Sequence record: OM982647
Strand: one strand, 5' to 3'
Length of the DNA stretch: 64,000 nt
From: Escherichia phage ST2
Shown here: positions 46,307 through 64,000 of the stretch, in pieces
How positions within the stretch are numbered: the first letter of the stretch is position 1
How the letters are laid out: every line of letters starts with the position of its first letter
The notes under the pieces: generated by a model
Database searches by the model: none
Told to the model about the DNA's origin: nothing
The model's input: the letters and a program-made list of their open reading frames with translations, nothing else
Position numbers and translations under genes: made by a program

Positions 46307-46308
46307 AA

Positions 46309-48456: not shown

Positions 48457-48487
48457 GATAGACCTCCATTTAAAGATAAGCCTATCA

Positions 48488-49682: not shown

Positions 49683-49695
49683 ACCTTCGCCAGGT

Positions 49696-49923
49696 TTAGC
49701 AGCAAACAACTTCTTCAGCATCGTAAGCATTAATTGTTCCTCGAACAAAACGAACATCGCCATCATCCCAACGAATTTCGGCATTAAATTTGACGTCTTC
49801 ACCATCCATCATGAATGAGTGTACGACTACATCATCATAATATCCAAGACCGTATTTCAACGAAACTTCTTGAGCAATCAAAGCACCTAATGTGTTATTA
49901 GGTTTAATCCAACGATTTAACAT
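49696..49923 (-). CDS. hypothetical protein
   Basis: track ORF trimmed to Met with AGAGGAG ribosome-binding site (75 aa). Confidence 0.4.
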   Translation of the reverse strand: MLNRWIKPNNTLGALIAQEVSLKYGLGYYDDVVVHSFMMDGEDVKFNAEIRWDDGDVRFVRGTINAYDAEEVVCC

Positions 49924-49999
49924 ATTGTTCTCCTCTTGAGTAAGTAAGAATATCTTAACACAGTTTTTAGTGGTTGTAAACTGTAGAAACAAAAAAAAA

Positions 50000-50017
50000 G
50001 GAATCCCGAAGGATTCC
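50000..50017 (-). terminator. terminator hairpin GGAATCCttcgGGATTCC with T9 run downstream of soc
   Basis: perfect 7-bp stem; nine A on plus strand = U-run on minus transcript. Confidence 0.55.
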
Positions 50018-50026
50018 TTAAATTAT

Positions 50027-50263
50027 TTAACCGCTTACTGGTGTAGGGGTAAACATTGCAGCATTCTTAGTTTTCCAAGTTGCTGCATCAGAAACGACAT
50101 CAGAATAAGCTGCCTTTTCTGACGGAAAGATTTGATAATGAGAATCTGCAATCCGATGTTCGTTTGAATAAATCTCAAACGGTACAGAAACTTCCATACC
50201 TTTAACTTCTTTGCCTTCACCAGCCGGACGTGTAAAGGTTTTGATATTAACGTAACCACCCAT
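50027..50263 (-). CDS. soc: small outer capsid protein Soc
   Basis: 78 aa; GYVNIKTF ... YQIFPSEKAAYS match recalled T4 Soc. Confidence 0.85.
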   Translation of the reverse strand: MGGYVNIKTFTRPAGEGKEVKGMEVSVPFEIYSNEHRIADSHYQIFPSEKAAYSDVVSDAATWKTKNAAMFTPTPVSG

Positions 50264-50308
50264 AATTAACTCCTTTGTTGTTTAATTACAGGTGTATTTA
50301 TAACTTAA

Positions 50309-50845
50309 TCAGTAACCATTATCCTGACGTTCAAAGTTGTGTTGGTTTTTCAAGTAGTAAAGTTTAAAGATTTCTTCAGCAGAAAGACCCAGACCTTGGA
50401 ACATATTTAGAACGAAATGCAGAATATCAATCATTTCAAATTTAATTTCAAGTTGGTCTTCAGGAGACAGTTCATCGATACGACGATTTCGATATTCAGC
50501 ATGTTGTGCTTTCCATGGCTTCCAAACACTGCTAGCGGCTTTCTCACCATTGCTCATACCGCCAAGTGAAGTCAACAGTTCACGGAATTCATCATCAATA
50601 TAATCTTTCTGATTACGCAGCCAATCAACAACATCGCCAGCAGTGGCCAATTCATCAGGATGTTTGTTATGTTCAGGCTTGTCATTTGCCAGACGAACCT
50701 GTAAAGATTTCTGCATATCAAGCATTACCTGCAGTGGGTCTTTATCTTCGTGAATCAGAGCATTAAAATAAGCTTCTTCTGCTTTATCAACACCAGAAAT
50801 AAGTTGTGAACATTCGTTAAAGTGTGCCATTATTTTTCCTTTCAA
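50309..50845 (-). CDS. 56: dCTP pyrophosphatase gp56 (MazG-like)
   Basis: 178 aa; position upstream of soc, size near T4 gp56 (171 aa). Confidence 0.7.
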   Translation of the reverse strand: MKGKIMAHFNECSQLISGVDKAEEAYFNALIHEDKDPLQVMLDMQKSLQVRLANDKPEHNKHPDELATAGDVVDWLRNQKDYIDDEFRELLTSLGGMSNGEKAASSVWKPWKAQHAEYRNRRIDELSPEDQLEIKFEMIDILHFVLNMFQGLGLSAEEIFKLYYLKNQHNFERQDNGY

Positions 50846-50919
50846 TTCAGTATAAGAGAGTTAATTCTAACATTAATTTTATAAAGCGTAATAAATAATA
50901 AGGTAACTAAGGAGATATT

Positions 50920-51117
50920 ATGTTTAAACTTCCATCGTTAATCAACGCTATTAAAGGCAATAAAAAGAAAACTGCTATCGCCGCAATAGTTGTAGGTGGC
51001 ATTATTTCATGGAACTTCGGTATCGCACCATTATTAGTTGCTAATGGTATTATAGTTCCTTCTGTTCCATTGGATACTGTAGTTGATTTGGCCTTTGCTT
51101 TAGTTGGGCTTGTTTAA
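50920..51117 (+). CDS. small membrane protein (two predicted TM helices), convergent with flanking genes
   Basis: 65-aa ORF with strong AAGGAG ribosome-binding site 7 nt before ATG; hydrophobic segments AIAAIVVGGIISW and VVDLAFALVGLV. Confidence 0.5.
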   Translation: MFKLPSLINAIKGNKKKTAIAAIVVGGIISWNFGIAPLLVANGIIVPSVPLDTVVDLAFALVGLV

Positions 51118-52136
51118 ATCTTAGAATAATGAGATAATCTCATTTTAGCATGCAACCCACTTGAAATATTCTGTTTCATATATTCTAAAATTTCTTGTGG
51201 TGTTGCATTTTCTTTCATTACCATATCATTCACATCCTTTGATCTCCATGGAGCTCGATCCCAGAACATGACACGTTCGCCTGCATCAACTAATCGCTTC
51301 ATACGAGCTATAGTATCCGGATGCCTAGGTTCATTATCCATTACCCATACCCGACGTTCTTTAAATGGTACCACATCTAAATCTATTGAGCCGCCTGTAA
51401 TAGCGATTGCGTTTGGTATGAATAAACTATCAATAGGACCTTCCATTACCCAGACGTCCCCTTCCTTAACACGTTCAACACCATAAATTTTTGTTGCAGA
51501 CTCAAACGCTTTAATAGTGATATATTTCTGAGGAGCATCTTTACGAAGTGCACGTCCTTGGAACGACTCGGCCTTCCCATCTTTATTAAAAATAGGAATC
51601 ACTAAACGCGGTTCAGGAATCTCTTTCTTATACGTACCCGGTTGAATCTTGTTGACCAATTTGGGCCATTCTAATGTGAACCATAATCTGTTCCATGATT
51701 CTTTAGGAATACACCGAGACTTAACATATTTCACAATAGGATGCTCTTCAGGCAACTTGTCTAGACGAGAACAAGACGGCAAAGAATTTATAGTCTTTTT
51801 CTCTGGCTCCGGTTTAGCTTCAGGAACCTTTTCAATCTTTGGTTCCATTCTAGCTTTTTCTTTACGAACTTCCATTAGATATTCGCGATAAAGCTCTTCA
51901 TCATACTCTTTTAAGTATCCGGAAATTGTATTGTGGTATTGACAGTTATAGCAATGCACATTACCAGGAGTACCGCCATAATACCATCCGCGAGCTTTCA
52001 TTGCATCTGTCTGGGAGTCGCCACAAACTGGACATCGAAATGTTAATTTAAATGTGCTTGAATTATTGATTTGTCTAAAACGAGGTAGGTGAGAAAACGC
52101 ACGATAAGCAAATTCATTATCTATCCATTCAGCCAT
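51114..52136 (-). CDS. 61: DNA primase gp61
   Basis: zinc ribbon FRCPVCGDSQTD...CYNCQYH and Toprim region; start set at internal Met (AEWIDNEFAYRA) giving 341 aa as in T4 (track ORF extends to 52172). Confidence 0.95.
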   Translation of the reverse strand: MAEWIDNEFAYRAFSHLPRFRQINNSSTFKLTFRCPVCGDSQTDAMKARGWYYGGTPGNVHCYNCQYHNTISGYLKEYDEELYREYLMEVRKEKARMEPKIEKVPEAKPEPEKKTINSLPSCSRLDKLPEEHPIVKYVKSRCIPKESWNRLWFTLEWPKLVNKIQPGTYKKEIPEPRLVIPIFNKDGKAESFQGRALRKDAPQKYITIKAFESATKIYGVERVKEGDVWVMEGPIDSLFIPNAIAITGGSIDLDVVPFKERRVWVMDNEPRHPDTIARMKRLVDAGERVMFWDRAPWRSKDVNDMVMKENATPQEILEYMKQNISSGLHAKMRLSHYSKI

Positions 52137-52176
52137 AGTATTCTCCAGAGGCCTTAAATTAATAAGGCCCATCTTA

Positions 52177-52671
52177 TCACAACTTATTAATATTTACTTT
52201 AATTCGCTTTCTTTTCTTGGAAGGAATTTGTTCGGGACCTTTATTTACGACTGCACCTGTAGTTGTTCCTGATGCAATAGCTTGAGGGCTGCCACCTGAA
52301 TCGCCAGCAACCATATCCTCAAATAAAGGGAGCTCTTTAAATATTTCTTTCTGTTGTTCTTCCGTAATGTTATAGCGTGAAGCTACAGCACTCCAGGCAG
52401 ACATCATTGAGGCCATTCCATTAAGACCCGGAACAGTGCTCATCATTCGCTTCATTGAACGAACTGAAGCATGAAAAGGTGTATACGCCGCTTTTTCTTC
52501 GGGAGTAGAAGGACGTTTAAGAACACTTCCACGTTCATCGATGATTTTGGCGTCGTATGCTTTCCATTCGGTAAAAGGTTTTTGCATTAGTCGAATAAAC
52601 TTATATGCGTAAACAGAATCTATTGCAGTGTTAATAATACCCATAGGTACCTCCTGAGTATATTTAATCAA
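52177..52671 (-). CDS. hypothetical protein (61.1-like position)
   Basis: 164-aa ORF with basic C-terminus. Confidence 0.45.
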   Translation of the reverse strand: MIKYTQEVPMGIINTAIDSVYAYKFIRLMQKPFTEWKAYDAKIIDERGSVLKRPSTPEEKAAYTPFHASVRSMKRMMSTVPGLNGMASMMSAWSAVASRYNITEEQQKEIFKELPLFEDMVAGDSGGSPQAIASGTTTGAVVNKGPEQIPSKKRKRIKVNINKL

Positions 52672-52861
52672 TTACAAAGATTGCTTTGTCACCATTTATA
52701 TCTGTGACTTCATACGTAGTGCCTTCATACTGTGGAATATTCCAAATTACACCATCATTAGCTTTTACGCTAATATGGCATTGGTGTTTTGAAACAACTT
52801 CATAATCTTCAAAACTTGTAAAAACACTAATTTTAGAACCAGTGCAAATTGCAGTAGTCAT
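52664..52861 (-). CDS. hypothetical small protein
   Basis: 65-aa ORF. Confidence 0.35.
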   Translation of the reverse strand: MTTAICTGSKISVFTSFEDYEVVSKHQCHISVKANDGVIWNIPQYEGTTYEVTDINGDKAIFVID

Positions 52862-52862
52862 T

Positions 52863-53522
52863 TTAACCTCGATTCATAAATGCATTAAATATTTGGTCAT
52901 CAACAGAAATTTCTAATTCGACTTCAATTGCTTCGGCCTTTTCTTCAGGTGGTAATTCGTATCCACACACTACAATTTTTTCATCAATATCAAAATATAC
53001 AGAAGCAATACGATTAATGTTATTTTCGGTTAAGTCCAAATCAACATCAACATCTTTTTGACCTACACTTAAAGGATAACTAATACGGGTTATTTTATTA
53101 TCTTTAACAAAGAGTCCACCAACATACTCTGTACTACGTTTGAAGTCTACACGTTTCCGAAATGAAAGATATGATGCATCTTTACCGTGAGCTCGGCTCA
53201 TAGGACATAATGAATAGCTAGAATAAGAGATGTCAAATCCTACACCTTCAATATGAGCCAACGTGTCATGGTTAAACCAATTATAATCATATGCCAAATC
53301 CATTAAATTATAATATGTGAAAGGCACTGGATTAACATCGTACGTTGTACCTTTAAAATCTGCCCAGGCAACGATTTCGTTATCTTTAACAATTACAAAA
53401 ATTACACCAAGATGGTATCCGTTATTATTTTCATTCGGCGTTATATTATAACATTGTGCATTAGGAAATTTACCATATTTAAATGGTGCGTTTTTGTGCA
53501 TGTAATAAATCATATTATTCAC
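52863..53522 (-). CDS. hypothetical protein (61.2-like position)
   Basis: 219-aa ORF. Confidence 0.45.
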   Translation of the reverse strand: MNNMIYYMHKNAPFKYGKFPNAQCYNITPNENNNGYHLGVIFVIVKDNEIVAWADFKGTTYDVNPVPFTYYNLMDLAYDYNWFNHDTLAHIEGVGFDISYSSYSLCPMSRAHGKDASYLSFRKRVDFKRSTEYVGGLFVKDNKITRISYPLSVGQKDVDVDLDLTENNINRIASVYFDIDEKIVVCGYELPPEEKAEAIEVELEISVDDQIFNAFMNRG

Positions 53523-53808
53523 CTGTGATTTCGGTTACGATATCTTTGTTATCGAAATTAGGGTCACAATACAAGACATAGTTGTACTGCATGATACCGC
53601 CGGACTTAAGTTGGTCAACAACTTTATTAACCATATTAGGACGGTCTCGTTTAGTGATGTTCATGATATCAGAGAAGATTTGTTGTTCAACATCTTCTTG
53701 ATTTGCAGTCATTGACCACTCACAGAGGTCTTTATCATAACCTGCCGTAACTGGAGCTGGTGCACATGATACTGCAAGTAAGATTGCTGCCAATGATAAC
53801 TTTTTCAT
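53515..53808 (-). CDS. secreted periplasmic protein, Spackle-like (superinfection exclusion candidate)
   Basis: 97 aa with N-terminal signal peptide MKKLSLAAILLAVSCAPAPVTA; position matches T4 sp (61.3); size matches. Confidence 0.45.
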   Translation of the reverse strand: MKKLSLAAILLAVSCAPAPVTAGYDKDLCEWSMTANQEDVEQQIFSDIMNITKRDRPNMVNKVVDQLKSGGIMQYNYVLYCDPNFDNKDIVTEITGE

Positions 53809-53834
53809 TTTAGCTCCTTAGTTGATTTGATAGG

Positions 53835-53869
53835 ACTACTATACTATAGTCCATCTATAATGTAAACAA
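53835..53869 (-). promoter_or_regulatory. early promoter-like element (GTTTAC ... TATAGT) with GGACTA/TAGTCC inverted repeat
   Basis: read on minus strand upstream of the Spackle-like gene. Confidence 0.35.
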
Positions 53870-53871
53870 GT

Positions 53872-54120
53872 TTATTCTTTTTCGCTAATAATAATTACTT
53901 GTTGAGGCGGCTGAGCAGATTTCTTTTCGGCAACGATAGACCAAATTAAAGTTCCAATCCAACCGACCATCGTCCAGTTAAAGAGTAAAGATACAAAGAA
54001 GATTGCTGTTGTGCTTTTTGTGCCACGAATAAGTGCGATTACCCAAGGCAACATGTAAATGATGATTGAACCAATACCTGCAATTAAAACTGCTACTGAA
54101 CTAGCTACGAATAATTCCAT
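53872..54120 (-). CDS. small integral membrane protein (two TM helices)
   Basis: 82 aa; hydrophobic segments VAVLIAGIGSIIIYMLPWVIALI and AIFFVSLLFNWTMVGWIGTLIWSI. Confidence 0.45.
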   Translation of the reverse strand: MELFVASSVAVLIAGIGSIIIYMLPWVIALIRGTKSTTAIFFVSLLFNWTMVGWIGTLIWSIVAEKKSAQPPQQVIIISEKE

Positions 54121-54181
54121 GTTAATTTCCTCTTGATTTGTTATGTTTATAATATCTTGTTTTAACTTTGGCGTAAACCAA

Positions 54182-54550
54182 TTAATTAAATTTGTTTAAA
54201 CGTTCAATACACTGGATGTAGTTATTCGCGATTTGTTTCTGGGTAGGCTCTTTACCAGTTGTTTCAACATAGCGAATGAATGCGATTTCAGTAGCCTGTA
54301 AACAATGCTCTTTAACACGTTGTTCTTTTGTCATAGCTACAGTATCAGAATCACGATAACGTTGAGCATGAGCATCAGCTTGAATCATTCGATTACCTAC
54401 AGTAACCGGGTCTTCCACTTCAACTTTAGGTTGGTCATATTGTTTAACATTCGGATTGTAAATCAGTTGGCCAACGTTATTAGGGATAAAGCCATGAGCA
54501 CCACATCCGGTTAATCCGAATACCATTGCTAAAGCGATTAATTTTTTCAT
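54182..54550 (-). CDS. lipoprotein (signal peptide + lipobox LTGC)
   Basis: 122 aa; MKKLIALAMVFGLTGC... Confidence 0.5.
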   Translation of the reverse strand: MKKLIALAMVFGLTGCGAHGFIPNNVGQLIYNPNVKQYDQPKVEVEDPVTVGNRMIQADAHAQRYRDSDTVAMTKEQRVKEHCLQATEIAFIRYVETTGKEPTQKQIANNYIQCIERLNKFN

Positions 54551-54620
54551 TTCAATTTCCTCTGTAGTTGATAAAAAGATAGTAACACAGTATGTGGTGC
54601 TTGTAAACAGTTATTTAAAA

Positions 54621-54830
54621 TTATCGAAAATCTGCTTCGAAAACTTTCTCGTCATTAACAAATGCTTTAACCAGTGCACTGTTCACTTCAGCAAGTTGTA
54701 CCGCAACCCACTCGATTTCTTCACGGTCGCCTGATAACATGATATCTTTAGTGAACATCTCACCACTTTTAAACCAACCGATAAAAGTAACTTTAGTTAA
54801 TTTGCTCATATTTCCTCGCAAAATGCCCAT
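54621..54830 (-). CDS. hypothetical small protein (dmd/61.5-like position)
   Basis: 69-aa ORF (probably starting at an internal Met, about 62 aa) adjacent to the helicase-proximal end of the 61.x array. Confidence 0.3.
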   Translation of the reverse strand: MGILRGNMSKLTKVTFIGWFKSGEMFTKDIMLSGDREEIEWVAVQLAEVNSALVKAFVNDEKVFEADFR

Positions 54831-55123
54831 TCAGCGTGATAAACTGTAGCGCCTTTAGTATCATTCATTTGAACTACATCTACCGGAGAAATTACTCGAT
54901 AGAGACGTGGTTCACCTCCATAAGAGCGTGCTGCTCGTCCTGCATAAATCTTTGCTAAACCGATATCTTCAGTAAAGAATACACGATTCAGGTTTTTCTT
55001 ACGTCCAGTTTCAGACAGAACTCCTGTTTCCTCAGGAGGACAAAGCATGTTTTCGATGTTAGCTGAACTGCTTGAACCGTGATAAAAAATCTTAAATTCT
55101 GCTTTACAATCGATGGTTTTCAT
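54806..55123 (-). CDS. hypothetical protein
   Basis: 105-aa ORF with own early promoter. Confidence 0.4.
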   Translation of the reverse strand: MKTIDCKAEFKIFYHGSSSSANIENMLCPPEETGVLSETGRKKNLNRVFFTEDIGLAKIYAGRAARSYGGEPRLYRVISPVDVVQMNDTKGATVYHAEWAFCEEI

Positions 55124-55145
55124 TTTGTTCTCCAGTAGTTGATAG

Positions 55146-55180
55146 GTCTATAATAACACAACTACTGGAGAAGTAAACTT
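55146..55180 (-). promoter_or_regulatory. early promoter GTTTAC-N17-TATTATA flanked by 10-bp inverted repeat CCAGTAGTTG/CAACTACTGG
   Basis: seen directly. Confidence 0.4.
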
Positions 55181-55553
55181 AAAAACGTAATTTAGATACG
55201 TCTGCGTTGATTTCGTTTTGGTTTGCATCGTACGCAATTAAACGAACCGCTTTAGATGGGTCATTCAATGCATAGAAATGATGGAACATTGCTCGAACGA
55301 TATCACCATTTACGAGTTCTACTTGGATAGGAGAACCTTTTTCGAGTTGGAAATGTTCATAAGCTTTGATGGTTCGTAGATAATCAAGTTTTTGATTTCC
55401 AGCTCCAACTATTTGTACGATACGTTTGCCCATGTTTTCCATACGAGATACAATAGTTTTAGGAGCAAGAATAACGTAGGTTGCCAGCGGAGAAACTACT
55501 TCAACAGTTGTGTTTTCGGTGATTGCAGTAAAAATTGCTTGAGACATATTCAT
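55179..55553 (-). CDS. hypothetical protein
   Basis: 124-aa ORF. Confidence 0.4.
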   Translation of the reverse strand: MNMSQAIFTAITENTTVEVVSPLATYVILAPKTIVSRMENMGKRIVQIVGAGNQKLDYLRTIKAYEHFQLEKGSPIQVELVNGDIVRAMFHHFYALNDPSKAVRLIAYDANQNEINADVSKLRF

Positions 55554-55619
55554 AATGTTTTCCTCTTGGTTAGTGTAAGTACATCATATCATGCCTAGAG
55601 GAAGATGTAAACCCCGAAA

Positions 55620-55635
55620 GGAGACCGAAGTCTCC
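55620..55635 (-). terminator. terminator hairpin GGAGACttcgGTCTCC + U-run downstream of gene 41
   Basis: perfect stem; TTTTTATTA follows on plus strand, another complementary segment precedes. Confidence 0.5.
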
Positions 55636-55641
55636 TTTTTA

Positions 55642-57084
55642 TTAAAATTTTAACTCATTGGCTAAGCTATCTAGGTCAGCACGTGTTGCTTTGGCTTTAC
55701 CTACGCGTTCCGTACGATTCACCTCTGCCTGACGCATCTGAGCACCTGCGTTTTCATTTACTGTGTTAGGTGTGTTCATGCCTTCTTGCTCAATCTCAAT
55801 CCATTTCTGGTTGCCTTTACGTACACCCATCAGGAATTTATTCCACTTATTCTTATCGCCGTATCGTGATTTGATTTGTTTGATAAGTTGTTGTTCAGCT
55901 TGTGCAAGTTCTTCGGTTTCAATTACAGCCAACATGAAATCTGCCGTTGCTGGTAAACCTGCTGATTCTGCAATATCACTCATGTTCATATCCGAAGCAT
56001 CCCATGCTGCACGTCCTACTTGAGCTGCAGTCCATAGAACTGTTTCAGATTCTACTGCTAATGCACGAAGTTCTTCTGCGATAGCTTTAACTAATGTGTA
56101 GCTATTTTCAGTGTAAACTCTGATACGACAAGACCCACAAATACCTAAGTAATCAACCATGATTACAGATGGCACAAAGTTCTTCTTGAGTTTCAATTCA
56201 TTAAGCAATGCACGGAATGTATTAGCATTAGCTCCGCCAGTAGGATACTGTTTAACTACTAAACGTCCTAATGTGGATTTTGAACGCCATTTTTCCATCT
56301 TGGCTTTATATTCGGCATAAGATACGTTACCATCATCGATATCATCAAGTGATACGTCAAGCATGTTTGCATCTATACGCTTAGCACAAACTTCTTCAGC
56401 CATTTCCATGGAAATATAAAGAACGTTATGACCTGTTTGAAGATAATCTGCAGCAAGTGAACAAAGGCCTAAAGATTTACCAACGTTAACACCGGCCATT
56501 AAAACATTCAGTGTACCGGTTTCAGCACCACCTTTAGTGATTTTATTCAGAATGTTTAATTTGAACGGGACCTTACGTGCTTTATTTAGATAAGAAAGCC
56601 AGCGTGCTTCGTAGTCTTCCATCCAGTCATGTCCAACATAACTATCAAACGAAATTGAAAGTGCTTGACGCATAATATCAGGAATAGCTCCTACATCAGG
56701 CATTTTCTTGTTACGTTGTTCTGGAGGTAGTTCAGCATTAGACTGAATCTCAATGATTTTGGATGTAGCATTATACATCGCTTTTTGCTGGACATATTTC
56801 TCAGTTTCTTTAACCAACCATTCATGGTCTTCAGGAGTATCAGCCAATTTTTCAATTAGGTCTGAAGTTCCTTTATATTCGGCTTCAGTTAAAGAACTGT
56901 TATCTAAAGCCACCTTTAATGCATTGATAGATGGCATTGCATTATATTCGTTAACGTGGCTCTTTATAATTTTAAAGACATTTTTTGCCGGTCCACGCTC
57001 AAAATACTCAGAATCCATATAAGGCCAGACCTTAGAAAAATAAGCCTGGTCGTATACTAGATGAGACAAAATAATTTCTACCAC
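55642..57084 (-). CDS. 41: replicative DNA helicase gp41 (DnaB-like)
   Basis: 480 aa; Walker A GVNVGKS, RecA-like helicase domain; T4 position. Confidence 0.95.
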   Translation of the reverse strand: MVEIILSHLVYDQAYFSKVWPYMDSEYFERGPAKNVFKIIKSHVNEYNAMPSINALKVALDNSSLTEAEYKGTSDLIEKLADTPEDHEWLVKETEKYVQQKAMYNATSKIIEIQSNAELPPEQRNKKMPDVGAIPDIMRQALSISFDSYVGHDWMEDYEARWLSYLNKARKVPFKLNILNKITKGGAETGTLNVLMAGVNVGKSLGLCSLAADYLQTGHNVLYISMEMAEEVCAKRIDANMLDVSLDDIDDGNVSYAEYKAKMEKWRSKSTLGRLVVKQYPTGGANANTFRALLNELKLKKNFVPSVIMVDYLGICGSCRIRVYTENSYTLVKAIAEELRALAVESETVLWTAAQVGRAAWDASDMNMSDIAESAGLPATADFMLAVIETEELAQAEQQLIKQIKSRYGDKNKWNKFLMGVRKGNQKWIEIEQEGMNTPNTVNENAGAQMRQAEVNRTERVGKAKATRADLDSLANELKF

Positions 57085-57093
57085 GATAACTCC

Positions 57094-57456
57094 TTAAAAG
57101 AATTTAAATTTTTTCTTGGTTCGTTCATTAAAAGCTTGTTGTACTTGCATTGTAACACATTTTTCAACATGCTGTGCAAGTTCTGCTTTTCTGTCCTGGT
57201 CAAGAACTGCAAAGTCCATTACGATTTTACCATCAACCCAGTCTAGTTTTGTAATATAGACTATATGATGGGAACCGTCTTCAAGTGTAATCAGAATCTC
57301 TTGAATGACATTTTCCATTGCTGAACGGATAATTTTAAGAGATTCATTAAACACTCGTTCTTTGCGAATGTCTTCCCCTTCCGAAGAAGGGGATTCATCA
57401 ACGATTTCTATATTTAAATCATCGAGATTATTCATCGAAATCTTCCATTTCGTCAA
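57094..57456 (-). CDS. 40: gp40-like head vertex assembly protein
   Basis: 120-aa ORF between 41 and uvsX, as gene 40 in T4. Confidence 0.5.
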   Translation of the reverse strand: MTKWKISMNNLDDLNIEIVDESPSSEGEDIRKERVFNESLKIIRSAMENVIQEILITLEDGSHHIVYITKLDWVDGKIVMDFAVLDQDRKAELAQHVEKCVTMQVQQAFNERTKKKFKFF

Positions 57457-58600
57457 GGTCGTTTTCTATATCTGCTGCAGATGGAGCATCAGAAGTTTTA
57501 ACCGGAACTTTAGTTGTTGCTTTGCAATTAATAAGGTCGTTAACAGCGTCATCAACTTCTTTAATAGAAGAGATAGCACCTAGTTTATATTTAGTTTCAA
57601 TTGCATCTCGGAAAGGTTTGTGTTTAAACAAAGGTCCCCAGAATTCTACACAATCAGTAGCTTTAGCACGCCATGATTTTTCTTCACGAATCATTTCACC
57701 TGTTTCTTCGTCAAGGAATTCACGAGCATACCAACCGGCTTTAGGCTTAACTACAAAACCAATTTCAGTTGCCATTTCTAGCAAGCCGCTGAATGGGTCG
57801 ATACCACCATCAAAATTAACTGTGATTGGGAAAGTAGATTTTTCTTTAACTGTACGAGATTTTTCTGCTTTCAACGTGAAGTCATAACCGGTCAATTCTG
57901 TACCTTCTTTAACCTGACGTTTAGAGATAAAGAATACAGTGTTAGCAGAGTAAAGAATACCTGTACCACCACCCATAATCTCTTTAGGATATAGTCCGCC
58001 GATTTCCATTGCTGTATGGTTGATTGCAACACACGGAATATCTTTAATAGTCAGATAAGGAGTCACAATACGGAACAGAGATTTAAGTGCCTTAGCACGA
58101 GACATATCACCTACGACTTTCTCGTTCAATGCATCTTCGGTTTCTTTCTTAGATGCAGTATTACCGATCGAGTCAATAAAGATAATAACTTTATCACCGC
58201 GTTCAATAGCGTCAAGCTGATTAGTCATATCAACTTTAAGTTGTTCGACAGATTGAATCGGAGTATGAACTACACGGTCTAAATCAACACCCATCGAACG
58301 GAAGTAAGATTCTGAAGCACCGAATTCTGAGTCATAAAACAAACAGATTGCATCTTTATATTTCTTCATATACGCTGCAACCATAGTCAGCCCAAACAAC
58401 GTTTTAAAGTGTTTAGAAGGAGCAGCAAAAATAGTTAAGCCTGATTGCAACCCTGCATTCAGTGCACCACCTAATGCAATATTCAACATCGGAATACGAG
58501 TAGGGACTTCATCACGATTATTAAACAGCTTAGACTTAGTCAAGTCTGCAGTCATTTTAGAAGTAGAAGCTTTAATCAGACGAGATTTTAAATCAGACAT
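57428..58600 (-). CDS. uvsX: UvsX recombinase (RecA-like)
   Basis: 390 aa; RecA fold motifs (FAAPSKHFKT, IFIDSIGN) and length of T4 UvsX (391 aa). Confidence 0.95.
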   Translation of the reverse strand: MSDLKSRLIKASTSKMTADLTKSKLFNNRDEVPTRIPMLNIALGGALNAGLQSGLTIFAAPSKHFKTLFGLTMVAAYMKKYKDAICLFYDSEFGASESYFRSMGVDLDRVVHTPIQSVEQLKVDMTNQLDAIERGDKVIIFIDSIGNTASKKETEDALNEKVVGDMSRAKALKSLFRIVTPYLTIKDIPCVAINHTAMEIGGLYPKEIMGGGTGILYSANTVFFISKRQVKEGTELTGYDFTLKAEKSRTVKEKSTFPITVNFDGGIDPFSGLLEMATEIGFVVKPKAGWYAREFLDEETGEMIREEKSWRAKATDCVEFWGPLFKHKPFRDAIETKYKLGAISSIKEVDDAVNDLINCKATTKVPVKTSDAPSAADIENDLDEMEDFDE

Positions 58601-58698
58601 TGTATTTTTCCATAGGCATCATTATATTTTACTCATGTTTAAAAGATAAGACGATTATATACTAAGGGTTATACAGCATTTAAAACTTTAAATGGCTC

Positions 58699-59247
58699 TT
58701 AACGAGCCCATTTGATGATTTCTGTAATCAAACCATTACGTTCGCTTGCATTAAATCCTATAACTTTGTTAGCACCATCATGATTAAGTAATTGATACGT
58801 TTGGATTTTGTTATGAATTGCAAACTCTTCAAAATGTGAAATGACTGTATTAAAACCGAATGAAGACAAAGTAATAAGGTCGTCTTCAAAACTTTCAGTC
58901 ATTTCGTTACGTGTTAAAATAATTGTGAACACATCATGGTTTTGGCAAAGACGAACATAATCCTGTTCATAAACGTCAAGAACAGAGTCCGCATCTTGTC
59001 GAATACGTCCGTAAACCCAGTTACTAATATATCCACGATCTAACAGATAAATCTTAGTAGGGTCTAAATAATTCAACATCGTTTCGAAACAGCCAACTTC
59101 GTTTCGAGACTTAACATCGAAACGTCCATCAACTGTTCGTTTAGGGAAATCAATCTTTACATATCTTTCACTAATTTCCATTATGTCATTAATGAAAGTT
59201 GTTTTACCAGCATTATCCGGGCCATCTACTAAAATAATTTTAGCCAT
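58699..59247 (-). CDS. P-loop NTPase / nucleotide-kinase-like protein at the T4 bgt locus
   Basis: 182 aa; Walker A ILVDGPDNAGKTT at residues 5-17; small size typical of (d)NMP or sugar kinases; no similarity to T4 beta-glucosyltransferase. Confidence 0.55.
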   Translation of the reverse strand: MAKIILVDGPDNAGKTTFINDIMEISERYVKIDFPKRTVDGRFDVKSRNEVGCFETMLNYLDPTKIYLLDRGYISNWVYGRIRQDADSVLDVYEQDYVRLCQNHDVFTIILTRNEMTESFEDDLITLSSFGFNTVISHFEEFAIHNKIQTYQLLNHDGANKVIGFNASERNGLITEIIKWAR

Positions 59248-59248
59248 T

Positions 59249-60148
59249 TTATTCCTCGATTACGACATCTTCATATTTAGGTATATTATACGGTGAAGAA
59301 ATTAAAGCATTAAAGTAGATGAACTCACCAAGACCTGGATGGAATACTTCTTCAGGATTTTCGAAATATTGAATCTTCGGACGTCCTTTAAGAATTTGAT
59401 AGTACTCAGTTTTAGTTGGATTAAAAATTCGAATCAGCGCTTCTTCAGGATACTTATTTCTGTCGAAACTATTATTTGGATCAGTTATATAAAGCGGTTG
59501 ACCTAATTGAATTGCACATTCAACCACTTGTTCAAAACGATAGCACGGGTCACTAATTCGAAATGGATGAAAAATACCATCTAGATGAATAGGAGCCAAA
59601 TCACCTACAAGACGCTGCATGATGGAAGGACGTATAACTTTCTGCGTTACGATAATCTTATTACCATCTGCACCGGCGTTAACCAGCACTTCTTTTTGAC
59701 GTTCATTCAACACAGTAGTTTGAAGTGAACGATTAACCGACAACATATCGGTTTTTAAGAATTCATCAATATAAAAACGTGGTTTATTAGGGTCTGCAGT
59801 GATATTGAAATTGAATTCTACATCAAAAGCACCATCATATCCAGTGATATCTGTGATTAGAAAATCACAATCATAATAAGCAATTAATGAATCAACCACA
59901 AATTCATTTTCAGACCAGAAATATTTACGAGTGTTATACGCGTTATCTTTATACCATAATGGAACAAACTTAAATTCTGGGAAAAGACGTTCACATTCTT
60001 TAATATCAGATGCATTACGTGGATATGTAATCACATCACCTGGATTAGCACGGTGCAAATGAAGTTGGAAGTTGCCATCCTTAAGGATAGCATACTGTCC
60101 AGTTTCATAAGACCGCATACTCAAAATAGGTACGCGGAAAATAGCCAT
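59249..60148 (-). CDS. hypothetical protein, translationally coupled upstream partner of the P-loop protein
   Basis: 299-aa ORF ending 1 nt before the next start; AT-rich T4-like composition; its 5' flank is the abrupt junction with T7-like sequence. Confidence 0.5.
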   Translation of the reverse strand: MAIFRVPILSMRSYETGQYAILKDGNFQLHLHRANPGDVITYPRNASDIKECERLFPEFKFVPLWYKDNAYNTRKYFWSENEFVVDSLIAYYDCDFLITDITGYDGAFDVEFNFNITADPNKPRFYIDEFLKTDMLSVNRSLQTTVLNERQKEVLVNAGADGNKIIVTQKVIRPSIMQRLVGDLAPIHLDGIFHPFRISDPCYRFEQVVECAIQLGQPLYITDPNNSFDRNKYPEEALIRIFNPTKTEYYQILKGRPKIQYFENPEEVFHPGLGEFIYFNALISSPYNIPKYEDVVIEE

Positions 60149-60151
60149 TAG

Positions 60152-60259
60152 TCAAAGCTGCGGAGTTCGGCGTTCCTCGCTCTGGAGGTCAGCAAGCATA
60201 CGCTGTGCCATCTCCGTATCCAGCATCTCCAGCAGCTTGATTAAAGTCTTGTCGCTCAT
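60152..60259 (-). pseudogene. T7-like gene 18 (terminase small subunit) N-terminal fragment, truncated at the chimeric junction
   Basis: MSDKTLIKLLEMLDTEMAQRMLADLQSEERRTPQL then stop; preceded by AGGAGT ribosome-binding site; follows the holin gene as in T7. Confidence 0.5.
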
Positions 60260-60262
60260 AGG

Positions 60263-60466
60263 TTACTCCTTATTTGCACGTTTCCAGTCAATAATCTTAT
60301 CGACTACCTTGGCACCAATCTGAACCACTGTGTAGGCGATAGCTGCAACGTAGAACCATTCGTTGAGTGACAGACCCCAAAAGAGCCTTGCCACACCATC
60401 AGCGCCAGCCACGCCAGCAATCGGTGCAGCCTTTACGATTTCATTGTTAAAATCCAACGACAACAT
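60263..60466 (-). CDS. T7-like class II holin (gene 17.5)
   Basis: 67 aa; MLSLDFNNEIVKAAPIAGV...LSLNEWFYVAAIAYTVVQIGAKVVDKIIDWKRANKE closely matches recalled T7 gp17.5. Confidence 0.85.
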   Translation of the reverse strand: MLSLDFNNEIVKAAPIAGVAGADGVARLFWGLSLNEWFYVAAIAYTVVQIGAKVVDKIIDWKRANKE

Positions 60467-60503
60467 TGTGTCCTCCTAGTGTGAGCCATCCGTGGCCTTG
60501 TTA

Positions 60504-60890
60504 TTAATCCATGTTCTTAAGTTCAGCTAAGAGAGCCTTGAGGTCTTTCTCAATATCCTCTTTGGTTCTCGCATTGACTTCTTCTGGTTTCCTATAGAAC
60601 TTGGAGCCATCCCATAGAACAGTCCCAAGCGGTAAGTCTTCTGGATAAGAGTCCGTAACGATTACATCACCGTGTTCATATGGGGCATAGATGCCATTAA
60701 CGCTTCCCTTAGTGAACCAAGTAACATGACCAGACTCTTGTGTCCCAACCACGTATTTCTCGTCCCTATCGTCCAGTTCAGCCATCAGTTCATACCAATC
60801 TGTACCATCAGAACTCTTTACATCATAGAACTTAGTTCCAGTTTCAGGGTCGGAAACAACCTTAAACTCCCACTTCATGTATTTTCTCAT
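60504..60890 (-). CDS. hypothetical protein in T7-like block
   Basis: 128-aa ORF with AAGGAG ribosome-binding site between tail-fibre remnant and holin. Confidence 0.45.
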   Translation of the reverse strand: MRKYMKWEFKVVSDPETGTKFYDVKSSDGTDWYELMAELDDRDEKYVVGTQESGHVTWFTKGSVNGIYAPYEHGDVIVTDSYPEDLPLGTVLWDGSKFYRKPEEVNARTKEDIEKDLKALLAELKNMD

Positions 60891-60911
60891 TATACATTCT
60901 CCTTATAGTCA

Positions 60912-61620
60912 TCATTCAGTGACCGCCAATCGTCGAGTACCATTCATTGATACACTCCACAGCGGTGAATAGTAAGCGCCGTTAACGCCATGCCCTTGGT
61001 TAAGGTTTAGTCCTTGCAGAATGTGACCAGCGGGAGGGATGGCATCGTACCAACCACCCGGAATTGTAGTCATACTGCGTGCACCAATAACAAGGTTAGT
61101 CGTGAAGTTAGTCTTGCACCAAGTCGTCAAGAAGCCACCATACGCAGACCCCCGGATGTCACCATCACGAGTTAGAGAGAAACCTCTAGACACACTGATT
61201 GCGCCATTATAGTTGAAGTCAAACTGTGCCTCATCCTGTCCACTATTAAATACCCAAAGTCTAGCCAATGGCAGATTAGTAGAGCCTCCGCGAACACCAC
61301 CCAGCTTCCACCAGCAGTCGTACCAGTCACCATTAACAGCGTTAATGAAAGTCCCTTCACCACCAGTGTCCGTAATGAGCCTCATCTCGTTCCTTTCTGT
61401 TCCACCGATATAAACAGTGTGTGAGGTAAGTCCGTCCTTTGGTTTAGAGCGGAAAGCGCCATCGAATGTGTGAGCAGGTGCTTTATAGTCGATACCTACA
61501 GGTGCAACGGCGATTTCTGTTGAGCCGTGTCGAAGGCGCGTGTTTGTGCCAAAATCCACAGAACCACCGTTTCGTCTAGCCAATTGCTCTGGAGACAGAG
61601 CCGGGTGCCGTTGTGTTGCC
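60912..61620 (-). pseudogene. C-terminal portion of a podovirus tail-fibre-like protein (5'-truncated)
   Basis: Gly/Asn/Thr-rich beta-type sequence upstream of the holin in a gene 17-like position; N-terminal codons of the track ORF run into antisense of the gp16 fragment. Confidence 0.35.
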
Positions 61621-61633
61621 TCAAGGTCAAATC

Positions 61634-62992
61634 CTGAGCGACACCAACCCACTGAACCCTCAGACTCTTAGCGAGTTCGAGGCGGTCAACCCTGAGCGTG
61701 CCGCGCGTGGTATCTCTTTGAGTGGTTTCACTGAGATTGGCTTGAAGACTCTCCGCTCTGAGAACCCGACTGTTCGCTCCATTGCAAGTGACCTTGTGCG
61801 TTCTCCAACAGGGATGGAATCAGGCTCTAATGGTAAGTTCGGTGCGACAGCTTCTGACATTAAGGAGCGACTCCATGCGAACAACCAGCGCACCTACAAT
61901 CAGCTTTATGATGCTGTGCGTACTGCAATGAAAGACCCTGAGTTCTCCACAGGTGGTGCCACAATGAGCCGTAAGGAAATCCGACAGGAAATCTACAAGC
62001 GTGCAGCCTTGGCGATTGAGCGACCTGAGCTTCAAGCAAACCTGACAAAGGGTGAGCGGAACGTGATGAACATCCTCAAGCAGCACTTTGACCTCAAACG
62101 TGAAATCATGGAGAACCCGTCAATCTTCGGCAACACCAAGGCGGTCAGCATCTTCCCCGGCTCACGCCACAAGGGAACCTACGTGCCAAACGTGTACGAC
62201 CGCGCTATCAAGATTGAGATGGTTAAACGTTACGGTAATGATGGCTTGCAGCGAGCAATCGCGGAGTCATGGTTGACGTCTTATCGTGCTCGTCCAGAAG
62301 TCAAGGCGAGGGTCGATGAGTACCTGATGGAACTTAACGGTCTCAAATCCGTGCAGGAAGTTACGCCTGAGATGGTGCAGAAGCACGCGATGGATAAGGC
62401 GTATGGTATTTCACACACTGACCAGTTCTCTGCCTCCTCTGTCATTGATGATAAACTTGAGGGTCTGACGGGTATCGAGAACAACAACTTCTTGGAAGCC
62501 CGTAACATGTTCGACAGTGACATGGCGGTGACTCTCCCTGATGGTAACACGTTCTCTGTGAATGACCTGCGTACCTATGACATGGCTGACATTCTGCCTG
62601 CATATGACCGCCGAGTTGATGGGGATGTTGCAATCATGGGTGGTTCCGGTAAGACTACCAAAGACCTGAAAGATGAAATCATGGCGCTGGATGCGCAGTC
62701 AGAGGGCAACGGCACATTGAAAGGTGAAGTGGAAGCTCTCAAGGACACCGTGAAGATTCTGACTGGTCGTGCTCGTAGGAACCCGGAAGGCGCTTGGGGC
62801 ACAGCCCTGCGCTCCGTCAATGACCTTACGTTCTTCGCTAAGAACGCCTACATGGGTGCGCAGAACCTTACTGAAATCGCTGGTATGCTGGCGAAAGGTA
62901 ACGTCTCTGCGATAACTCATGGCATCCCTATGATTAACGATTGGGTCAACCGTGGTAAACCGCTTCGTGCCTCTGAGATTAATACGTCATAG
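61634..62992 (+). pseudogene. internal fragment of T7-like gp16 (internal virion protein D), truncated at both ends
   Basis: NPLNPQTLSEFEAVNPERAARGI...VRSPTGMESGSNGKFGATASDI...AIMGGSGKTTKDLKDEI...FFAKNAYMGAQNLTEIAG matches the middle of recalled T7 gp16; no lytic-transglycosylase N-terminus or C-terminus. Confidence 0.8.
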
Positions 62993-63213
62993 CTCATAGG
63001 CTTACTGCCTCCTGTACGTCTTCTCGTTGATAACTTTGCTTCACGCTCTTTGTTTGCGGGTACTCGATGTTCACACACGAAGCACCATTCATGCCCGTCA
63101 GAGTACACAGAGTTACCATCAGAAGACCCACAGTTTTCACATGGAGCATGAAACAGAAAGATACTATCGTCTTCTCGTTCCATTGTACATTCCTTAATCA
63201 GTTGCGAGAACAA
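62982..63213 (-). pseudogene. T7-like gp4 primase-helicase N-terminal zinc-ribbon fragment, truncated after about 77 codons
   Basis: IFLFHAPCENCGSSDGNSVYSDGHEWCFVCEH matches T7 gp4 N-terminus; similarity ends where the gp16 fragment begins. Confidence 0.8.
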
Positions 63214-63228
63214 AGGGAAACCGTTAAG

Positions 63229-63251
63229 TCTCCCTTTAGTGAGTGTTAATT
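63229..63251 (-). promoter_or_regulatory. T3-type single-subunit RNA polymerase promoter AATTAACACTCACTAAAGGGAGA
   Basis: one mismatch to recalled T3 consensus AATTAACCCTCACTAAAGGGAGA; between gene 3.5 and gene 4 remnants. Confidence 0.55.
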
Positions 63252-63361
63252 ATTCCTCGGTGTGTTCCTCCGCCTTGATTGGGTCTTTGCACTGACACTG
63301 ACGTGACGGTACACGACTCTTCAACGGCTTATCACAGCGAATACAAATCATCCTCATGGTA

Positions 63362-63817
63362 TCACCCTCGGTCAGATGTAACCAGTTCGTTCTTCTCCCA
63401 CCAGCGCTTCAAGTCGAAGGACGGGCAGGCTTTGGGTGCAACGTCATGGTGAGCACGAAGGACTGAACCCTCATACTTCACCAGCAGCGTGACCAGCAGA
63501 CTACGCAGCGCTTGCATTTGCGCAGGTGTAAAGTTGGCGTCGAACTTGCCTTTATCATCAATCCCACCCACGAGGCATACGCCTACGGAGTTGTGGTTGT
63601 AACCTTTAACGTGGGAACCTACAGCCAGTTCATCGCGGCCTGCTTCCACAGTGCCATCACGCTTGATGATGAAGTGATATCCTACGTCTAACCAGCCCTG
63701 CTCTTTGTGCCACTGACGAATCTCACGAACGCCAATGTTCTGGCTTGGCTTGGTTGCTGAGCAATGCACAAAGATTGCCTCCGTGGTTTCTCGTGGTTTG
63801 AATTGAACTTTAGCCAT
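63362..63817 (-). CDS. T7-like lysozyme / N-acetylmuramoyl-L-alanine amidase (gene 3.5)
   Basis: 151 aa; AIFVHCSATKPSQN, GYHFIIKRDGTVEAGRD, APKACPSFDLKRWWEKNELVTSDRG match recalled T7 gp3.5 at roughly 90 percent. Confidence 0.9.
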   Translation of the reverse strand: MAKVQFKPRETTEAIFVHCSATKPSQNIGVREIRQWHKEQGWLDVGYHFIIKRDGTVEAGRDELAVGSHVKGYNHNSVGVCLVGGIDDKGKFDANFTPAQMQALRSLLVTLLVKYEGSVLRAHHDVAPKACPSFDLKRWWEKNELVTSDRG

Positions 63818-63989
63818 TTTTCTTTACTCCTTTCTTAGTCTTAAATTTATCGAACGGAACCTCCTTCTTGGGTTCTTTGAGCCACTCCACCGGAATTAGC
63901 TTGTCAGCAAACAGAATGCCATGCTTCTCACACCACTCGGCGTAGCTTGTCGGACTACCCTTGTAGAGCTTTGAGCGGCTGCTTGTGCT
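63810..63989 (-). pseudogene. T7-like endonuclease I (gene 3) C-terminal fragment
   Basis: KLYKGSPTSY..CEKHGI.FADKLIP.EW.KEPKKEVPFD matches T7 gp3 C-terminus; overlaps gene 3.5 start; in-frame TAG at about 63990..63992 then window ends. Confidence 0.6.
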
Positions 63990-64000
63990 CTAGTTTCTAC

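What the first reader, a model, noticed from the sequence alone, without database searches (positions are those of the whole stretch)
60152..64000. T7-like segment is internally scrambled: three fragments in inconsistent order and orientation
Minus strand carries tail-fibre C-terminus, a 128-aa ORF, holin 17.5 and gene 18 N-terminus (60152..about 61620); plus strand carries an internal piece of gp16 (about 61634..62992); then minus strand again carries gene 4 N-terminus, gene 3.5 and gene 3 C-terminus (62982..64000). gp16 and gp4 are truncated exactly where the neighbouring fragment begins (about 61620 and about 62985). This is not a viable podovirus arrangement, and the gene 3 remnant also has an in-frame TAG near 63990.
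Basis: partly seen in the sequence, partly recalled or inferred. Interest (0 to 1): 0.5.

Follow-up and report, generated by a model that had tools for sequence, protein, structure and literature searches.

The report
Chimeric patchwork at contig end
The last 3.8 kb of this window is a patchwork of unrelated pieces from two different phages, joined end to end with no shared sequence; it is almost certainly a sequencing or assembly artefact and not a real phage genome arrangement.

Summary
Window 1-60155 is one collinear T4-like (Mosigvirus, PhAPEC2-like) genome. It stops 7 nt inside the 3' end of the gene 42 homologue. Three pieces of a T3-like (Teetrevirus) genome follow, in non-genomic order and alternating orientation:
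- A, 60154-61586 (-): gene 18 N-terminus, holin, fibre assembly gene, fibre C-terminus.
- B, 61587-62982 (+): gp16 codons ~465-930.
- C, 62983-63985 (-): gene 4A codons 1-67, complete gene 3.5, last 57 codons of gene 3.

I found a fourth breakpoint at 63985|63986. The last 15 nt are an exact reverse complement of window 6094-6108, so the sequence returns to the T4-like genome, inverted.

The junctions share 2, 1 and 0 nt, as random joins would, and none has linker bases. No frameshift or indel occurs inside the pieces. No public record searched spans any junction tested, and reference genomes keep the canonical T7 order.

Best explanation (about 0.88): a non-biological chimera from a mixed Mosigvirus plus Teetrevirus sample. 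It arose either from a chimeric library molecule or read, or from contigs pasted together (piece lengths fall: 1433, 1396, 1003). Low interest.

The parts
1..60155 (.). Collinear T4-like (Mosigvirus, PhAPEC2-like) genome. It ends 7 nt into the 3' end of the dCMP-hydroxymethylase (gene 42) homologue, just upstream of the ATG (60146-60148) of the 299-aa gene 59249-60148.
   Evidence: The window aligns to PhAPEC2 as collinear blocks at 88-98% identity, with one 423-nt stretch unmatched, up to 60155. All 15 best phage records end at 60155. PhAPEC2 annotation places this point inside gp041. Ten natural contigs carry gene 42 there instead.
60154..60155 (.). Junction J1, T4-like to T3-like. There are 2 nt (AA) of ambiguous overlap and no inserted bases.
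   Evidence: Base-by-base alignments to PhAPEC2 and to ENA contig k141_1199778.
60154..61586 (-). T3-like piece A (1433 nt): gene 18 (small terminase) codons 1-35 at 60154-60259; holin 17.5 at 60263-60466; 128-aa tail fibre assembly protein at 60504-60890; tail fibre C-terminal 224 aa at 60912-61586.
   Evidence: BLAST. Pfam Phage_holin_2_2 and DNA_Packaging_2; PHROG 920, 1351 and 136. tblastn hits to T7-like fibres and their downstream genes. The same gene order occurs in phage N30.
61586..61587 (.). Junction J2, piece A to piece B. It is defined from the B side only, because no close reference exists for the fibre tip.
   Evidence: CT02 homology starts sharply at 61587. Fibre protein homology reaches to within about 33 nt of the junction.
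61587..62982 (+). T3-like piece B (1396 nt): an internal part of gp16 (internal virion protein D), codons ~465-930 of 1320. The frame is open throughout.
   Evidence: 98.5% identity to CT02 34832-36227 with no gaps. PHROG 342 positions 441-879 of 1235, E = 2e-148.
62982..62983 (.). Junction J3, piece B to piece C. There is 1 nt (A) of ambiguous overlap and no inserted bases.
   Evidence: Alignments to CT02 and to Klebsiella phage 066044.
62983..63985 (-). T3-like piece C (1003 nt): gene 4A primase/helicase codons 1-67 at 62983-63183; complete gene 3.5 amidase at 63362-63817; endonuclease I (gene 3) last 57 codons plus stop at 63810-63985.
   Evidence: 99.7% identity to phage 066044 with no gaps; all listed hits end by 63985. 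Pfam Zn_Ribbon_Prim, Amidase_2 and Phage_endo_I positions 96-149 of 149.
63985..63986 (.). Junction J4, piece C to piece D (new). There is no exact overlap, but 6 of 8 flanking bases are similar (GCTGCTTG versus GCAGCTTT).
   Evidence: Homology to 066044 stops abruptly at 63985. Repeat pair I7.
63986..64000 (-). Piece D (15 nt visible, cut by the window end): an exact reverse complement of window 6094-6108, in the T4-like pseT.3 region.
   Evidence: Exact 15-mer match on the opposite strand, with 0 expected in 100 shuffles. The match is also exact in PhAPEC2 and absent from the T3-like references CT02, phiYe-F10 and the held 4-kb stretch of 066044.

Best explanation
The segment is a non-biological chimera. 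The sample held two unrelated lytic coliphages: a T4-like Mosigvirus and a T3-like Teetrevirus. Pieces of their DNA, about 1.0-1.4 kb each, were joined end to end in random order and orientation, outside any cell.

Two routes are possible. One is a chimeric library molecule or read (blunt-end ligation concatemer or amplification chimera) that the assembler used to extend the end of the Mosigvirus contig. The other is assembler contigs pasted together without spacers; the pieces follow the long T4-like contig in descending length (1433, 1396, 1003 nt), as in a length-sorted multi-FASTA.

Shown here: the identity and parental position of each piece, the four sharp breakpoints, the lack of homology or linker at the junctions, and the absence of these joints elsewhere. 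Inferred: that the joins were made in vitro or in silico rather than in a cell, and which of the two routes applies.
For: 1. Two unrelated parents. GC jumps from about 0.35-0.39 to 0.45-0.52 at 60 kb. Positions 1-60155 are collinear with PhAPEC2. The rest is T3-like.
2. The joints cut through essential genes at arbitrary positions: gene 42 homologue, gene 18, gene 17, gp16 at both ends, gene 4 and gene 3.
3. Junction overlaps are 2, 1 and 0 nt. A simulation of random joins between these genomes gives 56% with 0 nt, 28% with 1 nt and 11% with 2 nt, mean 0.68. There are no linker or filler bases.
4. The sequence then returns to the T4-like genome, inverted, at a point 54 kb away. This is a random patchwork, not an insertion.
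5. No junction tested occurs in any of the collections scanned for it. J2 is absent from 50,697 phage records and IMG/VR. J1 is absent from IMG/VR and JGI metagenomes. J3 is absent from GTDB genomes. The whole tail is absent from E. coli genomes. J4 was not probed separately. The chimeric ORFs are not on record.
6. Ten independent Mosigvirus contigs encoding the identical 299-aa protein all have gene 42 upstream.
7. Each piece is internally an intact, natural slice, with open frames and no indels against references. The damage is confined to the joins.
8. Chimeric reads are common in phage sequencing. After MDA, 48-63% of long reads were chimeric (PMC13108922).
Against: Reads, coverage and the assembly graph are not available, so the artefact is inferred and not demonstrated.

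The bases are consensus-grade, with no frameshift in 3.8 kb. A single raw nanopore read would not look like this unless it had been polished.

Classical MDA chimeras usually show at least 3 nt of overlap and join points less than 10 kb apart on one molecule (bioRxiv 10.1101/2022.08.13.503872), which fits poorly here. De Bruijn mis-joins need k-mer-length repeats, and none exists at the junctions.

The descending-length pattern has a 1 in 6 chance for three pieces, so it is only a hint.
Confidence: 0.88

Rival explanations
1. It is a real DNA molecule made in a co-infected cell. T3-like cytosine DNA was cut up by the T4-like phage's nucleases. The fragments were end-joined, by illegitimate recombination or ligase, to each other and to T4-like DNA. 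The resulting defective concatemer was packaged by the sequence-independent headful machinery and then sequenced.
For: Both parents infect enterobacteria and evidently shared a sample. Joins with 0-2 nt overlap are also what end-joining would give. The Mosigvirus reference encodes EndoII and EndoIV homologues and a DNA ligase (annotation). That these enzymes degrade cytosine DNA is established T4 knowledge and was not tested here.
Against: Such a molecule lacks an intact gene 42 junction and rearranges the T4-like genome (inverted return 54 kb away). It could not propagate, so it would be a rare single molecule and not a consensus. No second occurrence exists in any collection searched. Ten natural contexts are all canonical. 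Nothing in the sequence distinguishes an in vivo join from an in vitro one.
Confidence: 0.05
2. It is a genuine rearranged T3-like genome or decayed remnant: a natural podovirus variant or degraded element with this gene order, resident next to or inside the T4-like genome.
For: Each piece is internally intact and 85-99.7% identical to living Teetrevirus genomes where references exist.
Against: gp16, gene 4, gene 3, gene 17 and gene 18 are each truncated at a junction. About 35 kb of the podovirus genome is missing between the pieces. In the reference genomes where all three pieces were placed (CT02 and phiYe-F10), they lie in canonical order on one strand, and none of the 970 matching records covers 80% or more of the segment in one place. 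Near-identity to active phages, with no frameshifts, argues against an old decaying remnant. The flanks are lytic T4-like DNA on both sides. T4-like and T7-like phages are strictly lytic and are not known to integrate (established knowledge).
Confidence: 0.01
3. It is a deliberately or accidentally constructed in-silico sequence that is unrelated to any single sample. Examples are a benchmark or simulated chimera, or a database record merged from separate entries.
For: The joins are perfectly clean, the bases inside the pieces are consensus-grade, and no junction tested occurs in any public collection scanned for it. GenBank does hold composite 'UNVERIFIED_ORG' Mosigvirus records such as BEU50, 193 kb.
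Against: Piece lengths are irregular (1433, 1396, 1003). The T3-like fibre tip and assembly gene have no close relative in any public collection searched. The pieces were therefore not cut from a deposited genome and must come from primary data of a real, unpublished phage.
Confidence: 0.06

Closest known systems
Canonical Teetrevirus (T3-like, Studiervirinae) genomes: phiYe-F10, CT02, Klebsiella phage 066044, phiSG-JL2
   Same: The pieces carry the standard T3/T7 genes. Nucleotide identity is 98.5% for the gp16 part, 99.7% for genes 3 to 4, and 85-95% for holin/gene 18. Local gene order is natural inside every piece.
   Different: References have all genes on one strand in the order 3, 3.5, 4 ... 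16, 17, 17.5, 18. Here only about 3.8 kb of roughly 39 kb is present, in the order (18-17.5-17)rc, 16-internal, (4-3.5-3)rc, with every terminal gene truncated.
T7-like phages with a fibre-assembly gene between gene 17 and the holin (Escherichia phages N30, C5, P694; Serratia phage Pila)
   Same: The order fibre, ~125-aa ORF, holin, gene 18 is the same as in piece A. The 128-aa protein is 40-47% identical and the fibre tip about 30% identical to theirs.
   Different: There is no nucleotide-level similarity. The module here is a new variant attached to a Teetrevirus backbone.
Chimeric reads from library preparation or whole-genome amplification (ligation concatemers, MDA chimeras)
   Same: Several short segments are joined in one molecule, most with an orientation flip. 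The phenomenon is frequent in phage sequencing: 48-63% of reads after MDA (PMC13108922), with an inverted-to-direct ratio of about 9:1 (bioRxiv 10.1101/2022.08.13.503872). Here the orientation flips at both T3-to-T3 junctions.
   Different: MDA chimeras typically have at least 3 nt of overlap and partners less than 10 kb apart on the same molecule. Here the overlaps are 0-2 nt, one jump is about 20 kb and two jumps are between genomes. Blunt ligation or plain concatenation fits better.
Composite phage records in public databases, for example OM632671.1 'UNVERIFIED_ORG: Escherichia phage BEU50' (193,190 bp)
   Same: It is a Mosigvirus record about 25 kb longer than a normal genome of about 168 kb. 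The window's collinear sequence maps to it in rearranged, partly duplicated blocks, which is a precedent for unresolved mixed assemblies in this genus.
   Different: BEU50 contains no T3-like DNA and is only about 98% identical to the window, so it is not the source.

Membership tests
Intact T3/T7-like (Studiervirinae) genome | All genes lie on one strand in the conserved order (early, DNA metabolism, structural, packaging). | tested here: not met
   Pieces map to phiYe-F10 at 35884-35571 (-), 30976-32371 (+) and 12053-11048 (-). References are collinear on one strand.
Intact T3/T7-like (Studiervirinae) genome | Complete essential genes: 4 primase/helicase, 16, 17, 18, 3. | tested here: not met
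   Present are gene 4 with 67 codons, gp16 codons ~465-930 only, gene 17 last 224 aa, gene 18 with 35 codons, and gene 3 last 57 codons.
Intact T3/T7-like (Studiervirinae) genome | Phage RNA polymerase gene and direct terminal repeats. | not testable with these tools
   Neither lies in 60154-64000, and the window ends at 64000.
Product of homologous or site-specific recombination | Shared homology or an att-like repeat at the junctions, with a recombinase nearby. | tested here: not met
   Overlaps are 2, 1 and 0 nt, matching the random expectation. Every ORF identified in the segment is a T3-like structural, lysis or replication gene, and no integrase was found.
MDA (phi29) amplification chimera | Inverted orientation at the junction. 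| tested here: met
   A(-) to B(+) and B(+) to C(-) both flip. By chance this is 1 in 4, so the support is weak.
MDA (phi29) amplification chimera | Overlap of 3-30 nt at the junction, with partners less than 10 kb apart on one template (bioRxiv 10.1101/2022.08.13.503872). | tested here: not met
   Overlaps are 0-2 nt. The A-to-B gap is about 3.5 kb, the B-to-C gap about 20 kb, and J1 and J4 join different genomes.
Blunt-end ligation concatemer or plain concatenation of contigs | Joins without homology or filler, arbitrary order and orientation, and pieces internally intact. | tested here: met
   overlaps; order and orientation; no indels; frames open.
Blunt-end ligation concatemer or plain concatenation of contigs | Junctions unsupported, or supported only at background level, by raw reads or read pairs. 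| not testable with these tools
   No reads, coverage or assembly graph are available.
Length-sorted contig concatenation (sub-hypothesis) | Successive pieces strictly decrease in length after the main contig. | tested here: inconclusive
   1433 > 1396 > 1003 nt holds (1 in 6 by chance). Piece D is cut by the window end, so the prediction that it is 1003 nt or shorter cannot be checked.

The most novel reading that the evidence does not exclude
The patchwork is a real capsid-packaged molecule from a cell co-infected by a Mosigvirus and a Teetrevirus. Nuclease-generated fragments of the losing T3-like genome were end-joined to T4-like DNA and packaged by headful packaging. That would be a direct snapshot of inter-phage DNA scavenging and illegitimate recombination.
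Probability: 0.04. Interest if true: 0.6.

Novelty: not a real feature. Interest (0 to 1): 0.1.

Why it matters
The main value is quality control. The last 3.8 kb of this window, and whatever follows it, should not be annotated or mined as a genome. The truncated "genes", the chimeric ORFs (246 aa at 60912-61652; 459 aa at 61613-62992) and the "nonsense" TAG are all by-products of the joins. The T4-like contig should be trimmed at 60155 and closed onto gene 42.

The one biologically useful residue is that the sample contained a second phage. It is a Teetrevirus whose fibre tip and fibre-assembly gene have no close relative in the public collections searched.

If the joins were real, which I put at about 4-5%, they would document end-joining between co-infecting phage genomes.

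Tried and rejected
1. I looked for a public sequence with the same joints and found none.
- Megablast of a junction-spanning probe against 50,697 phage records.
- Exact junction patterns in IMG/VR, JGI metagenomes and GTDB genomes.
- The whole tail against E. coli complete genomes.
- Exact-product look-ups of the two chimeric ORFs, the 128-aa ORF and gene 3.5.

2. I looked for the T3-like parent genome to fix junction J2 from the A side.
- The holin occurs on one 1.5-kb ENA contig that is only 95% identical and diverges upstream.
- The fibre tip and assembly protein have no close relatives in IMG/VR or JGI.
- J2 is therefore defined from the B side only.

3. I tested whether the oversized record BEU50 (193 kb) was the source or had the same structure. 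It has no T3-like DNA and is a different kind of composite.

4. I looked for a common restriction site or linker at the breakpoints by eye: TGTA|AAGC, TCAC|CTCT, TTAA|GGAG, TTCC|ATAC, CTTG|AGAA. None was found, so restriction-ligation and Hi-C type junctions are rejected.

5. A de Bruijn repeat-induced mis-join is rejected, because the parents share no k-mer-length sequence at any junction.

6. The 6/8 imperfect similarity at J4 was considered as a template-switch footprint. It occurs at 0.9% of random junctions, and the crossover is not at an exact match. I leave it as probably chance.

7. I did not run the large protein-homology searches, structure prediction or RNA tools, because nothing about the verdict depends on them.
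Full report
**What is in the window.** Base composition is 0.34-0.43 GC up to 60 kb and 0.45-0.52 GC in the last 4 kb. Positions 1-60155 align to the Mosigvirus vB_EcoM_PhAPEC2 as collinear blocks. Identity is 98% over most of the length, with two ordinary variable spots. The alignment runs across the arbitrary start of that circularly permuted record. All 15 best phage records stop matching at exactly 60155. In PhAPEC2 this point lies 7 nt inside the 3' end of gp041, the gene 42 / dCMP-hydroxymethylase homologue, which overlaps the start of the 299-aa gene 59249-60148. I looked up ten independent public contigs that encode the identical 299-aa protein. All have the thymidylate-synthase-family gene directly upstream, and none has T3-like DNA. 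The T4-like genome is therefore cut at an arbitrary point.

**The T3-like pieces.** Megablast of 60100-64000 hits 970 phage records, mostly Teetrevirus and other Studiervirinae. None covers 80% or more in one place. I used local BLAST against Shigella phage CT02 and Yersinia phage phiYe-F10, separate searches for each piece and base-by-base alignments. These give three pieces.
- **Piece A, 60154-61586, minus strand.** Gene 18 codons 1-35, holin 17.5, a 128-aa gene and the last 224 codons of the tail fibre.
- **Piece B, 61587-62982, plus strand.** 98.5% identical to CT02 34832-36227 without gaps, which is gp16 codons ~465-930 of 1320.
- **Piece C, 62983-63985, minus strand.** 99.7% identical to Klebsiella phage 066044 without gaps. 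It holds gene 4A codons 1-67, a complete gene 3.5 amidase, and the last 57 codons of endonuclease I.

Pfam and PHROG scans confirm each identity:
- Phage_holin_2_2.
- DNA_Packaging_2 / PHROG 1351, positions 1-35 of 88.
- PHROG 342 (gp16), positions 441-879 of 1235.
- Zn_Ribbon_Prim.
- Amidase_2.
- Phage_endo_I, positions 96-149 of 149.

The 128-aa ORF is a tail fibre assembly protein (PHROG 136). The order fibre, assembly gene, holin, gene 18 is natural, for example in Escherichia phage N30. Each piece is thus an intact slice of a normal genome. In phiYe-F10 coordinates the pieces sit at about 34.5-35.9 kb, 31.0-32.4 kb and 11.0-12.1 kb on one strand. In the window they appear as A(-), B(+), C(-). 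The 246-aa ORF 60912-61652 reads 66 nt into piece B by chance.

**A fourth breakpoint.** All listed references for piece C stop by 63985, and the alignment to phage 066044 breaks down completely after that base. The remaining 15 nt, TGCTCTAGTTTCTAC, are an exact reverse complement of window 6094-6108, in the T4-like pseT.3 region. The 15-mer is also exact in PhAPEC2. It is absent, even allowing 2 mismatches, from CT02, phiYe-F10 and the held 4-kb stretch of 066044. None is expected by chance in 100 shuffles. After three T3-like pieces the sequence therefore goes back to the T4-like genome, inverted, at a point 54 kb away from where it left. It is a by-product of the join and not a nonsense mutation in gene 3.

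**The junctions.** Where both parents are known, the number of bases assignable to either side is 2 (J1, AA), 1 (J3, A) and 0 (J4). There are no extra bases. A simulation of 200,000 random joins between these genomes gives 0, 1 and 2 nt in 56%, 28% and 11% of cases, with a mean of 0.68. The joints therefore look like random end-to-end joins. There is no common restriction site, no linker, and no k-mer-length repeat. J4 has an imperfect 6/8 similarity next to it, which occurs at 0.9% of random junctions. I treat it as probably chance. J2 can be fixed only from the B side, because the fibre tip has no nucleotide relative.

**Searches for the same arrangement elsewhere.** A 481-nt probe across J2 matches 85 phage records, all on the gp16 half only. 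Exact junction patterns are absent from the collections scanned for them: J2 and J1 from IMG/VR, J1 from JGI metagenomes, and J3 from GTDB genomes. J4 was not probed separately. The tail has no match in complete E. coli genomes. The chimeric ORF products are not on record.

**Explanation.** The simplest account is a non-biological chimera from a sample that held both a Mosigvirus and a Teetrevirus. I estimate its probability at about 0.88. Every join truncates a gene that its phage needs. The T4-like genome is both interrupted and re-entered in inverted orientation. The joins carry no homology, and the arrangement is unique.

Two routes remain open.
- **Route (a):** a chimeric library molecule or read, used by the assembler to extend a contig end. 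Chimeric reads are common in phage work: 48-63% of long reads after MDA were chimeric (PMC13108922). However, typical MDA chimeras have at least 3 nt of overlap and partners less than 10 kb apart on one molecule (bioRxiv 10.1101/2022.08.13.503872). Blunt ligation of short fragments therefore fits better than MDA.
- **Route (b):** contigs pasted together without spacers. The pieces follow the long contig in strictly descending length (1433, 1396, 1003 nt), like a length-sorted contig file from a low-coverage contaminant. This has a 1 in 6 chance for three pieces.

The absence of any indel or frameshift inside the pieces means the bases are consensus-grade. That argues against a single unpolished nanopore read but does not separate the two routes.

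**Rivals.**
- A real molecule formed in a co-infected cell by end-joining of degraded T3-like DNA and packaged by headful packaging cannot be excluded from sequence alone. It would be defective and rare, so it is unlikely to become an assembly consensus (about 0.05).
- A naturally rearranged or decaying podovirus element fails every test (about 0.01).
- An in-silico construct made from deposited genomes is unlikely, because the fibre tip and assembly gene have no close relative in any collection searched. The pieces must come from primary data (about 0.06, including record-merging accidents).

**Comparison with known things and novelty.** The pieces belong to an ordinary Teetrevirus backbone. 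The whole segment is not a member of the class "T3/T7-like genome", because collinearity and gene completeness were tested and not met. It matches the signature of ligation or concatenation artefacts on every feature that can be tested without reads. A partial precedent for unresolved mixed assemblies in this genus is OM632671.1 (BEU50, 193 kb, "UNVERIFIED_ORG"). That record is itself a rearranged composite but has no T3-like DNA and is not the source.

**Verdict.** This is not a real genomic feature, and interest is low (0.1). The practical consequence is to trim the contig at 60155 and ignore the truncated and chimeric ORFs. The decisive test is read mapping and assembly-graph inspection, or junction PCR.

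Noticed in passing
window 60468-61586 (minus strand): The T3-like phage's fibre tip (last 224 aa) and its 128-aa fibre assembly protein have no nucleotide match in 50,697 phage records, even in distant mode. The best protein relatives are 30-47% identical in the phage records and 48% in the JGI metagenomes; IMG/VR has none. This is a new receptor-binding module on an otherwise ordinary Teetrevirus backbone.
   Followed up: partly
window 63978-64000 versus 6094-6116: Next to the fourth breakpoint the two parents share an imperfect 6/8 similarity (GCTGCTTG versus GCAGCTTT), although the exact overlap is 0 nt. A random junction shows this 0.9% of the time. It is probably chance, but it could be a weak footprint of template switching.
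   Followed up: partly
L008-L011 (OM632671.1, Escherichia phage BEU50, 193,190 bp, 'UNVERIFIED_ORG'): This public Mosigvirus record is about 25 kb too long. The window's collinear sequence maps to it in rearranged blocks (about 167-154 kb, 29-1 kb, 135-109 kb), with weaker second copies. It looks like an unresolved mixture of two T4-like genomes. It has no T3-like DNA.
   Followed up: partly
window 27049-27471 and 42981-43992: Only two stretches of the T4-like part diverge from PhAPEC2. One is a 423-nt gap in megablast homology in the gp38-like adhesin (host specificity) gene. The other is an 87.6% identity block in the motB region, with about 0.5 kb of PhAPEC2 missing. These are ordinary hypervariable loci of T4-like phages.
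   Followed up: no
window 13857-13916, 30950-30991, 31269-31310, 33835-33894, 34347-34406, 53825-53884, 55139-55180 and others: Dispersed families of 40-60-nt repeats, TTGATAGGnCTAnnATA...GTAAAC, lie in the T4-like part. My reading, not checked against ORF positions or any promoter scan, is that they are the conserved promoter regions of T4-like phages; nothing about them looked unusual.
   Followed up: no
L004 (ENA ERZ27284548 contig k141_1199778, 1516 bp): The only public contig encoding the identical 67-aa holin is a short metagenome contig. It is 95% identical over holin/gene 18 but unrelated upstream of the holin, so the holin-packaging module is shared between T3-like phages with different fibre modules.
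   Followed up: no
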